From NCBI GenBank assembly GCA_964016885.1, contig OZ024740.1:18910001-18974000 (forward strand): a stretch of 64,000 nucleotides of DNA, given 5' to 3'. This DNA is from Eledone cirrhosa (taxonomy: Eukaryota). The position numbers and the translations under genes are program-made. The notes under the pieces were generated by a model that did no database searches, was not told the origin of the DNA, and was given only the letters and a program-made list of their open reading frames with translations. This document shows, one piece after another, positions 49,587 to 51,735 of this stretch (position 1 is its first letter; the number at the start of each line of letters is the position of its first letter).

Positions 49587-50250
49587 TCGAAATATATCAC
49601 AAGGATATACACAAGTCCAGCCTCCTGTTATTTTATTATAATAATTAACTCCGTATTCGCACCACCAACTACACAAACGAAGACGGGTGAGCTGCACTAC
49701 GTTGAGTACTCTCCATAATATTACATCGAGATTGACCATACGGAATGACCAATTCTATCCAGTGGTGAACCAACAAACCTAAATAATATATATATATATA
49801 TATATATATATATATATATATATATATATTTATATATATATATATGTATATATATATATATGTATATATATATATGTATATATATGTTTTGCAAGGTTTT
49901 TGATATGATCTGTTATTATTTCTGGCAATATTATAAACATATGACTCTTCCCAAATATATATATTGTTTAATATCTATTAATATATTGAATACCTTACTA
50001 AGTATGATTACTCTCGATTAAACACGGGACTCACACACACACACACACACACATATATATATATACACATATATATACATATATATATACATATATATAT
50101 ATATATATATATATATATATATATATATATATATACATATATATATATATATATATAACAGACGTAAAATAAGAAAATCTTTAACAAATTTTTTTTTAAA
50201 ATATGAGTCCCCGGTGTCCGCGCATTGCCTGGAGACTTAGCTGAGAATAG

Positions 50251-50332
50251 ACTCCCTGATGACGCAATGAATTCTCGACAGTTAGATTACGTAACTGTCT
50301 TTATCCCATTGCAGAAACTAATTAGTTGGAGT
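50251..50332 (+). ncRNA. Hammerhead ribozyme with canonical core and branched stem II
   Basis: ACTCC-CTGATGA-C.GCAATG..(GACAGTTA/TAACTGTC)..CATTGC.A-GAAA-CTAATTAG-TT-GGAGT. Confidence 0.85.
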
Positions 50333-50804
50333 GAAAATTTAAGTAAGTAAGTTAAAATTTAAAAAAAAAATTTTTTTTTTAAGATCTTATTTTACGTCTG
50401 TTATATTATTGTTCGGCATCCTCCTGCATTGAACCCCCTAGGTACTATGACATAACCTGTGTATTTGCTGGCATTAGCGTACATCTGTGCGCTTATGTTA
50501 GTAGATATATTAAATTATCTATATTTATCTCCAAATCACTGATTTGTCGAGCAAACCTGCCAAAACCACTTCTAAATTTTTTTGGGGGGTGTTAGTAGGC
50601 GTCTGTCATCTTACCATCCCATTCCTACTGACTAGCCTCTGTGTCACGTGATTGATTCTTTAGAATCGGCCATCTGACCAGAGGCAGCGAGGATTTCAGT
50701 GCATGGAATTCAGTCCCCGCTAGCTGTTCCATCTACTGAATTATTATTATTTTTATATGAGTCCCCGGTGTCCGCGCATTGCCTGGAGACTTAGCTGAGA
50801 ATAG

Positions 50805-50886
50805 ACTCCCTGATGACGCAATGAATTCTCGACAGTTAGATTACGTAACTGTCTTTATCCCATTGCAGAAACTAATTAGTTGGAGT
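50805..50886 (+). ncRNA. Hammerhead ribozyme (second copy in the 554-bp array)
   Basis: Same sequence as 50251-50332. Confidence 0.85.
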
Positions 50887-51071
50887 GAAAATTTAAGTAA
50901 GTTAAAATTAAAAAAAAAATTTTTTTTTAAAGATTTTCTTATTTTACGTCTGTTATATTATTGTTCTGCATCCTCCTGCATTGAACCACCTAGGTACTAT
51001 GACATAACCTGTGTATTTGCTGGCATTAGTGTACATCTGTGCGCTTATGTTAGTAGATATATATATATATA

Positions 51072-51735
51072 TATGAAAGACGTAAAATAAGAGAATTATG
51101 AAAATTGACTTACTAAAATTTCACTCCAACTAATTAGTTTCTGTAAGGGAATAAATATGGTTACGTTACGTAATCATAGAGAATCCTTATGTCATCAGGG
51201 AGTCTATTCTCAGCTAAGTTCCTAGGCAATGCGTGGACACAGGGAACTCATATAAAAATAATTCAGTGGATGCAAAAAAGCGAGCGGGACTAAATTCCAG
51301 GACATTGAAAAAATTCACTTCCTACTTGGTCAGTGGCAAATTCAAAAGAATCAATCACGTGACACTGAGGTTAATAAGTGAGGAGTGGGATGCTATTAAG
51401 ACAGCGGCCTGACCACTACCATGAACCATAGTAGTAATTTCTGCAAATTTTTACTCAACAAATAATTTGGAGATAATTATAAAGAATTAGTATATCTACC
51501 AACATATGTATACAGATGCATACCTATGCTAGCAAATATATAGGTTTTGTCTTAGTAACTTTGTCGTTCAATGCAAGGGGTGCAGAACAATTATATGAAA
51601 GACGTAAAATAAGAGAATTATGAAAATTGACTTACTTACTAAAATTTCACTCCAACTAATTAGTTTCTGTAAGGGAATAAATATTAGCATAGGTATGCAT
51701 CTGTATACATATGTTGGTAGATATACTAATTCTTT
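51072..51735 (-). mobile_element. 522-bp partial tandem repeat, diverged relative of the 554-bp unit, HHR at 51123-51203
   Basis: ATGAAAGACGTAAAATAAGAG at 51073 and 51595; minus strand ACTCC-CTGATGA-CA.TAAGG..CCTTA.CA-GAAA-CTAATTAG-TT-GGAGT; terminal inversion at 51686-51735. Confidence 0.8.

What the first reader, a model, noticed from the sequence alone, without database searches (positions are those of the whole stretch)
50201..51735. Adjacent diverged sister units show ribozyme covariation
The 554-bp (+) and 522-bp (-) units are visibly diverged, yet ACTCC-CTGATGA and GAAA-CTAATTAG-TT-GGAGT are invariant. Stem II changes from GCAATG/CATTGC to ATAAGG/CCTTAC with compensatory pairs. This is in-window evidence of purifying selection on the RNA fold. 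The two lie tail-to-tail across one (TA)n tract.
Basis: seen in the sequence. Interest (0 to 1): 0.7.

Follow-up and report, generated by a model that had tools for sequence, protein, structure and literature searches.

The report
Two sister hammerhead retrozymes, probable octopod
Two related copies of a non-coding jumping repeat, each carrying a self-cutting 'hammerhead' RNA motif, sit back to back in one TA microsatellite; paired mutations show that their RNA fold is being conserved, but this kind of element (a retrozyme) is already known from many animals.

Summary
50158-51738 holds two insertions of one high-copy, ORF-less repeat family: a 554-bp unit (+) and a 522/526-bp sister (-), 79% identical at aligned bases, tail to tail across an 18-nt TA run. 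Each unit has a type I hammerhead. Core, helix I and helix III are identical (33 of 33), while helix II is more diverged than background yet stays paired. A distal 8-bp stem they missed adds three compensatory pairs, and reads show that the two A-C mismatches are minority letters in the host. A second covarying hairpin lies 130-180 nt downstream of the cut site. Each insertion is a partial tandem plus a short inverted 5' piece, with a roughly 100-115-nt tail at one end only and TA microhomology at all four ends: the Penelope-like-element (PLE) signature. Best reading: a non-LTR retrozyme, a non-autonomous PLE derivative, probably in an octopod. Cleavage, circular RNA and the mobilising PLE are not shown. 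Known class; the long two-part helix II, long tail and tail hairpin are modest variants.

The parts
50053..50157 (.). (TA)n tract flanking element 1 on the left
   Evidence: (period 2, 52.5 copies)
50158..50200 (-). Element 1: inverted 5' piece (about 43 nt); its outer end is 'End A', about 75 nt downstream of the predicted cut site in unit terms
   Evidence: (1 substitution versus the second + copy)
50201..50754 (+). Element 1: first full 554-bp unit (subfamily U), non-coding
   Evidence: longest stop-free frame inside the elements is 109 aa
50755..51056 (+). Element 1: partial second unit, ending at 'End B' at the 3' base of the tail hairpin; 4 substitutions and 10 gap columns versus unit 1 over 311 columns
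50251..50332 (+). Type I hammerhead 1: helix I 50251-55/50328-32; CUGAUGA 50256-62; unpaired C 50263; helix IIa 50264-69/50307-12; 7x7 internal loop; helix IIb 50277-84/50292-99; unpaired A 50313; GAAA 50314-17; helix III inside a 12-nt palindrome 50316-27; predicted cut after 50327 (GUU)
50805..50886 (+). Type I hammerhead 2, same sequence as hammerhead 1; predicted cut after 50881, which would release a 554-nt monomer
50243..50276 (+). Possible 6-bp pseudoknot: GAGAAU (50243-48) with AUUCUC (50271-76); invariant in both sisters, not significant alone
   Evidence: shuffled flanks reach 6 nt in 20% of trials; 0 of 428 other 20-mers of the unit do
50460..50509 (+). Tail hairpin in unit 1 (21 pairs kept in both sisters: 2 double changes, 5 one-sided changes to or from G-U); second copy at about 51012-51061
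50641..50661 (+). 21-nt run identical in both sisters (sister copy 51345-51365, minus), containing CACGTG; possible promoter element or hairpin arm
   Evidence: third-longest identical run; function is inference
51057..51074 (.). (AT)9 tract between the two elements; 6 and 5 of its 18 letters also match the templates on either side
51075..51684 (-). Element 2 (subfamily V): 3' half of a hammerhead (51649-51684), then one full 522/526-nt unit, ending at End A at 51075
51123..51203 (-). Type I hammerhead 3; predicted cut after 51128. This copy has A instead of G at position 10.1 (51190) and a second A-C mismatch (51174), both minority letters in the host
51491..51540 (-). Tail hairpin of the V unit
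51685..51734 (+). Element 2: inverted 5' piece (50 nt, no substitution versus its own unit); outer end 14 nt past End B
51735..51908 (.). (TA)n tract flanking element 2 on the right
   Evidence: 87 copies

Best explanation
Two independent insertions, into one TA microsatellite, of two sister subfamilies of a non-LTR retrozyme: a non-coding 520-555-bp unit derived from the terminal repeat (pseudo-LTR plus tail) of a Penelope-like element (PLE). SHOWN here: closed head-to-tail period without an ORF; type I hammerhead with invariant core; compensatory change in a two-part helix II and in a downstream tail hairpin; partial tandem plus inverted 5' piece; tail at one end only; TA microhomology at all four outer ends; many copies in the host and relatives in two other organisms. 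INFERRED from known families: a tandem locus is transcribed; two hammerheads pair through the palindromic helix III (in the monomer the core prefers an inactive pairing) and cut at GUU to release a unit-length RNA that may be circularised. A PLE protein acting in trans binds the RNA, probably at the tail hairpin, and nicks both strands of a (TA)n tract. It starts reverse transcription at two internal AU-rich sites, one before and one after the tail hairpin. The two cDNAs join head to head, giving a long sense arm and a short inverted arm. Copies whose fold is broken leave fewer descendants, which is the purifying selection seen between the sisters.
For: Core and helices I and III 33 of 33 identical versus 346 of 436 outside the motif, P = 5e-4. 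Helix II: 12 substitutions in 28 paired positions, 10 of them in 5 compensated pairs. Reads: the pairing letter at 51190 in about 100% of X1 depth, 423 of 431 X13 reads and 44.6 of 47.1 X5 depth; at 51174 in 99.5% of X1 depth and 343 of 409 X13 reads. One contig each in X5 and X8 shows a third, shorter helix IIb closed by a C-UUCG-G loop (loose ends; pairing read by eye). The two loop-region indel rows shown (50839, 51169) both fall in loop IIb. Tail hairpin, defined from U alone: 21 of 23 pairs kept in V under 13 substitutions, P = 0.003, one of five regions tested; over its 24-position span 8 positions show G-U and 1 shows A-C. Monomers as circles fold at z = -6.0 and -3.9. Palindrome duplex -11.4 kcal/mol; the active monomer fold of U is 2.5 kcal/mol above the minimum. 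All 4 of 4 outer ends overlap alternating TA runs that cover 3.8% and 7.2% of the units. A second hammerhead family in the window has the same inverted, one-tail, (TA)n-flanked build in 3 copies. The build matches PLEs as described in PMC8557442 and PMC3846280 (passages) and the two internal RT start sites in PMC11167929. 2858 contigs of X1, 10,533 of 12.5 million reads of X13, 63 contigs of X5 and 4 of X8 lie on the units.
Against: No cleavage, transcript or circle is shown. The hammerhead departs from the canon: an extra A before GAAA, GUU at the cut site, a 51-nt helix II domain, and no Rfam match. In PMC 10.64898/2026.07.22.740005, 8 of 9 predicted frog retrozymes did not cleave in vitro. 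No PLE ORF was found in the window (motif scan) and no genome was held. Outside the motif and the tail hairpin, structural conservation is weak or absent: P = 0.82 and 0.5 for two hairpins, 0.045-0.16 overall. Of 40 displayed read variants, 12 break a predicted pair on their own, 7 keep it and 21 are unpaired. In X5 the pairing letter at 51174 is the minority (2.4 of 23.7). An extra C in helix I occurs in 157 of 1522 X13 reads. Only 40 of 295 variant rows were visible and none is phased. In vitro, the anole PLE starts RT without homology to the cut DNA, unlike the microhomology seen here.
Confidence: 0.82

Rival explanations
1. The pieces are 5'-truncated ends (long pseudo-LTRs with tail) of an autonomous PLE, and there is no self-propagating non-autonomous unit.
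For: The inverted piece, one-sided tail and TA targets are PLE traits. Most PLE hammerheads occur as single motifs from truncated copies (PMC4209133).
Against: Both sisters run head to tail from one hammerhead to the next with no ORF between, and align collinearly over the whole period. One X8 contig shows the same unit-to-unit joint ('goes back 523').
Confidence: 0.1
2. The covariation comes from DNA-level repair between hairpin arms (template switching at quasi-palindromes) or from chance; the hammerhead is a relic in a satellite spread by DNA recombination.
For: Only two independent sequences were aligned. Helix II is more diverged than background (32 of 48 identical). All five helix II double changes are Watson-Crick to Watson-Crick.
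Against: The unpaired catalytic core is invariant. The tail hairpin varies mostly through G-U wobble on the sense strand only. A UUCG-capped variant of helix IIb exists. Inverted pieces and TA-overlapping ends point to reverse transcription, not unequal crossing-over.
Confidence: 0.05
3. The two elements are one functional or single-event composite: one integration using two sister RNAs, or a convergent pair kept to make double-stranded RNA.
For: They are adjacent, separated by 18 nt, and both have End A on the left and End B on the right.
Against: Each element already has its own pair of ends. The surrounding 2 kb is a nest of TA tracts with fragments of other repeat families. Depth over the junction bin is 234 against up to 339,000 on the units in X1, so the pairing is not a repeated unit.
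Confidence: 0.03

Closest known systems
Metazoan non-LTR retrozymes (Cervera and de la Pena 2020, PMC7229834: sections 14, 17 and passages read; Li, Clavereau and Pollet 2026, 10.64898/2026.07.22.740005: parts 1-3 of 5 read)
   Same: Non-coding, low-GC (35-38%) tandem unit with one type I hammerhead per unit; strongly self-paired monomer; high copy number; subfamilies; a mollusc example (mussel) also lacks the usual loop 1-loop 2 contacts.
   Different: Unit of 522-554 nt is above the 170-400 nt expressed in the 2020 paper, though within the 51-972 bp of the 2026 preprint. Helix II is a 14-bp two-part stem. Inverted 5' pieces, a tail and TA targeting were not seen in the passages searched in PMC7229834 ('inverted' 0, 'microsatellite' 0). 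Expression and circles not shown here.
Endonuclease-positive Penelope-like elements and their pseudo-LTR hammerheads (PMC4209133 parts 1-2; PMC8557442 and PMC3846280 passages; PMC11167929 parts 1-2)
   Same: Partial tandem, adjacent inverted 5'-truncated copy, tail at one end only, (TA)n targets, short helix I, long helix II, extra base between positions 9 and 10.1, G10.1-C11.1, palindromic helix III.
   Different: No ORF. Tail about 100-115 nt instead of 30-40. An extra A between 11.1 and G12. Ends overlap TA runs in the template, whereas the anole element started RT without homology in vitro.
Pseudoknot-stabilised hammerheads (Perreault et al. 2011, PMC3088659, sections 7 and 8 read)
   Same: A possible 6-bp pairing between the helix II loop region and sequence next to helix I.
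   Different: Here it would use an internal loop of helix II in a repetitive animal type I motif; it is unproven (shuffle P about 0.2, no covariation seen).

Membership tests
Type I hammerhead ribozyme | Core CUGANGA ... GAAA ... NUH with helices I, II, III, helix I open | tested here: met
   GUU is listed among cleavable NUH sites in PMC3138052 (passage)
Type I hammerhead ribozyme | R10.1-Y11.1 pair stacked directly between A9 and G12 | tested here: inconclusive
   G-C pair present in U and in most V-type reads, but flanked by an unpaired C and an unpaired A; the window's V copy has A-C
Type I hammerhead ribozyme | Match to an Rfam hammerhead model | tested here: not met
   the long helix II is the likely cause (inference); the window's other hammerhead-like motifs also gave no gathering-score match
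Type I hammerhead ribozyme | Site-specific self-cleavage | not testable with these tools
   no RNA reads, no assay
Non-LTR retrozyme | Head-to-tail non-coding unit with a type I hammerhead in consecutive units | tested here: met
   Element 1 has two complete motifs 554 nt apart; element 2 has one and a half
Non-LTR retrozyme | Low GC, self-paired monomer | tested here: met
   GC 0.38 and 0.35; circular z -6.0 and -3.9 against 40 shuffles each
Non-LTR retrozyme | Many copies in the genome | tested here: met
   2858 contigs in X1, 10,533 reads in X13; no copy number can be derived
Non-LTR retrozyme | Expressed as unit-length linear and circular RNA | not testable with these tools
   no RNA run was available to lay
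PLE-mobilised element | Partial tandem with adjacent inverted 5'-truncated copy and tail at one end | tested here: met
   2 of 2 insertions; tail longer than the described 30-40 bp
PLE-mobilised element | Insertion in microsatellite or AT-rich DNA | tested here: met
   4 of 4 ends in (TA)n; target-site duplication cannot be read in TA
PLE-mobilised element | An autonomous PLE sharing the terminal sequence | not testable with these tools
   no genome held; no PLE motif in window frames of 60 aa or more
Autonomous PLE | RT plus GIY-YIG ORF | tested here: not met

The most novel reading that the evidence does not exclude
This is a cephalopod retrozyme lineage with a second selected RNA module. 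The covarying tail hairpin is the binding site for the helper PLE protein, and it positions two reverse-transcription start sites, one on each side and about 100-115 nt apart. Both prime by pairing of nicked (TA)n DNA with AUAU in the RNA, and each insertion uses one of each on opposite strands. The hammerhead is a pseudoknot-stabilised, dimer-gated variant with a 14-bp two-part helix II whose distal arm has been swapped between lineages. That would give a small, protein-free handle on the cis-signals of PLE transposition.
Probability: 0.35. Interest if true: 0.5.

Novelty: new member of a known kind. Interest (0 to 1): 0.3.

Why it matters
The class is known, so the finding itself changes little. 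It is useful in three ways. It extends retrozymes to a probable octopod; one full-text search (octopus + hammerhead ribozyme + Penelope + genome) listed only the Naiad paper, and a looser one listed no cephalopod retrozyme title, but subscription papers and repeat libraries were not searched. It gives direct sequence evidence that retrozyme RNA folds are under selection, inside and outside the ribozyme. And it links a retrozyme to the PLE insertion signature at base resolution, naming a candidate protein-binding hairpin and two start sites that can be tested in the existing in vitro PLE system.

Tried and rejected
Exact pattern scans found 0 matches in viral contigs and 0 in metagenome contigs. 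A looser metagenome pattern gave 117 loci, none with a BLAST hit to either unit at E <= 0.01, so they were dropped as chance. Rfam gave no hammerhead match. The pattern had too short a gap to reach these motifs. The shuffle control crashed and was rerun. No RNA holder listed. The sharp read ends in X13 sit at AATT (5 of 6 shown; the sixth is GATT with a common G-to-A variant), so they are library cut sites, not element ends or cleavage sites; for the same reason X13 covers the core poorly. 'Opposite strand' joints come from laying reads on two homologous units in opposite orientation and were not used. The many-copy conservation test was inconclusive: 0 of the 40 displayed substitution rows fall in the 66 core, helix I and helix III positions of 1092 (about 2.4 expected, P about 0.08 by hand), and 255 rows were hidden. 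The pseudoknot is not significant. An extended helix I with downstream UAAGU competes with an upstream hairpin, and neither showed significant conservation. The bacterial promoter scan is irrelevant here and at chance level. Earlier-findings look-ups by sequence and place were empty. Supplements of the cited papers were not read; they may hold cephalopod hammerhead families.

Full report
1. What is in the sequence. The window is animal DNA rich in TA microsatellites and LINEs. The closest named relatives of a neighbouring LINE protein are from Argonauta hians (67%) and Octopus sinensis (46%) among 27 hits, so the host is probably an octopod; this is inference. Between TA tracts at 50053-50157 and 51735-51908 lie two insertions of one repeat family. 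Element 1 has a 554-bp period on +. Element 2 has a 522/526-bp period on -. Cut-to-cut, the two units align over the whole period at 73% of 563 columns and 79.5% of 517 ungapped columns. Neither holds an ORF; the longest stop-free frame inside is 109 aa.

2. The hammerhead. Complete type I motifs lie at 50251-50332 (+), 50805-50886 (+) and 51123-51203 (-), and a 3' half at 51649-51684 (-). A strict descriptor finds none in 100 shuffles of 1-54600 or in 1000 shuffles of the locus. The anatomy is a 5-bp helix I, CUGAUGA, an unpaired C, a 6-bp helix IIa, a 7x7 (6x7) internal loop, an 8-bp helix IIb with a 7-nt loop, an unpaired A, GAAA, a short helix III and a GUU cut site. Helix III lies inside a 12-nt palindrome that forms a -11.4 kcal/mol duplex with a second copy. 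In the single motif the lowest-energy fold pairs the core CUGAU with the 3' side of helix III; for U the active fold is 2.5 kcal/mol higher. Short helix I, long helix II, an extra base after position 9, G10.1-C11.1 and a palindromic helix III that works as a dimer are the traits reported for PLE hammerheads (PMC4209133, parts 1-2 read). The extra A before GAAA was not among the variants in the sections I read (PMC3088659). Rfam models do not match.

3. Is the covariation real? Core, helix I and helix III are identical at 33 of 33 positions against 346 of 436 outside the motif (P = 5e-4), and the two longest identical runs (29 and 22 nt) contain the two core halves. Helix II is the opposite: 32 of 48 identical. 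The 'pairs kept' measure is softer: 0.004, 0.012 and 0.025 under three set-ups. These helices were taken from U's own fold, so V is the test. Pair counting on helix I, II, III and the tail hairpin together gave 97.6% of cells paired against 23-44% for slid partners, and 7 of 500 shuffles as high; with two sequences and a structure derived from them this is a weak control.

4. What the reads add. Four of the 15 listed runs were laid on 50504-51595 at 80% likeness. X1 (host) gave 2858 contigs, X13 (host) 10,533 of 12.5 million reads, X5 and X8 (two other organisms) 63 and 4 contigs. Both A-C mismatches of the window's V motif are minority letters in the host: the pairing G at 10.1 (51190) is carried by about all X1 depth, 423 of 431 X13 reads and most of X5; the pairing G at 51174 by 99.5% of X1 depth and 343 of 409 X13 reads, but by little of X5. 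So typical V-type copies probably keep all 14 pairs, and this copy is probably impaired. A variant at 51159 turns a G-C into G-U or, with an unseen partner change, A-U. One contig in X5 and one in X8 show another, shorter helix IIb closed by C-UUCG-G, a loop known (recalled) to stabilise RNA hairpins.

5. Structure outside the ribozyme. As circles the monomers fold at z = -6.0 and -3.9. Of five regions tested, one besides helix II is conserved beyond chance: a hairpin 133-182 nt downstream of the cut site keeps 21 of 23 pairs under 13 substitutions (P = 0.003), with two double changes and five changes to or from G-U. Over its span, 8 positions show G-U and 1 shows A-C on the sense strand, which favours RNA pairing over DNA palindrome repair. 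A hairpin just downstream of helix I is unchanged (9 of 9 pairs, no test possible); two others are not significant. A 6-bp pseudoknot between GAGAAU upstream of helix I and the helix II internal loop is possible and invariant, but shuffles reach it 20% of the time and a common variant at 51184 would break its end pair.

6. How the copies were made. Element 1 is: 43-nt inverted piece, full unit, partial unit. Element 2 is: 50-nt inverted piece, half motif, full unit. The outer ends fall in two classes. End A lies about 75 (U) or 58 (V) nt after the cut site; End B lies at the 3' base of the tail hairpin or 14 nt beyond. Each insertion has one of each: element 1 has End B on its long arm, element 2 on its short arm. 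All four ends overlap alternating TA runs of 4-6 nt in the template, which cover only 3.8% and 7.2% of the units. A second, unrelated hammerhead family in the window shows the same inverted build in three copies, with one arm ending 15-26 nt and the other about 95 nt after its cut site, both in (TA)n. This is the PLE signature: partial tandem, adjacent inverted 5'-truncated copy, a tail at only one end, and TA targets (PMC8557442, passages; PMC3846280, passages). For an anole PLE, the tail was shown to be the stretch between two internal RT start sites, with both DNA strands nicked and extended, and hammerhead cleavage was not needed for insertion in vitro (PMC11167929, parts 1-2). Here the tail is about 100-115 nt rather than 30-40 and contains the covarying hairpin, which makes that hairpin a candidate binding site for the helper protein (inference). 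The tail-to-tail meeting of the two elements is most simply two hits on the same microsatellite.

7. Comparison and verdict. A non-coding tandem unit with one type I hammerhead per unit is a non-LTR retrozyme (PMC7229834, sections 14 and 17), and a 2026 preprint derives these from PLE pseudo-LTRs (10.64898/2026.07.22.740005, parts 1-3 of 5). The sequence criteria are met; expression, circles, cleavage and the helper PLE could not be tested. The same preprint found cleavage in only 1 of 9 predicted elements, so activity should not be assumed. It is a new member of a known kind with some unusual structural details. Interest 0.3.

Noticed in passing
window 325-458, 11947-12148, 30826-31135, 34141-34342, 34812-35033, 49211-49356, tail fragments 49981-50030 and 51910-51977: A second hammerhead-bearing repeat family (core CUGA(A/U)GA, U-U at the base of a 3-bp helix II, longer helix III) in TA tracts; three copies are head-to-head inversions with one short and one long arm end. 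Two copies share at least 170 nt more upstream.
   Followed up: partly
window 12530-12578 (-): A compact type I hammerhead (8-bp helix I, 5-bp helix II, palindromic CAUG in helix III, z = -3.4), apparently a third family.
   Followed up: partly
window 564-629 (+) and 49529-49586 (-): Weaker hammerhead-like motifs that pass a relaxed descriptor but fold no better than shuffles.
   Followed up: no
window 7062-7110 (+) and 7472-10009 (+): A hammerhead-like motif related to the second family sits right after a (GAA)n tract, about 400 bp upstream of an intact-looking 845-aa stop-free frame with RT and zf-RVT domains that is flanked by (ATAC)n on both sides.
   Followed up: partly
window 18698-23707 and 40439-45395 (+), 37172-38398 (+): Related LINE copies with ORF1, AP endonuclease, RT and zf-RVT, broken by frameshifts or stops; nearest named relatives are from Argonauta and Octopus.
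   Followed up: partly
window 50641-50661 (+) and 51345-51365 (-): A 21-nt run identical in both sisters with a CACGTG box, about 100 nt upstream of a conserved T-rich/TATA-like stretch; possibly the unit's internal promoter.
   Followed up: no
window 54619-64000: A 15-bp satellite with about 626 copies and strong strand skew runs to the end of the window.
   Followed up: no
window 3374-3445 (+): A tRNA match (Rfam, 42 bits); neighbouring sequence resembles 4760-5152, so it may belong to a repeat.
   Followed up: no
window 17381-18550 (+): Fragments of an LTR-retrotransposon-like RT region split by a stop or frameshift.
   Followed up: no
window 692-906, 47395-47547, 53242-53594, 53985-54078: Another dispersed repeat of about 180 bp at 86-90% identity, with local direct and inverted duplications near TA tracts.
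   Followed up: no
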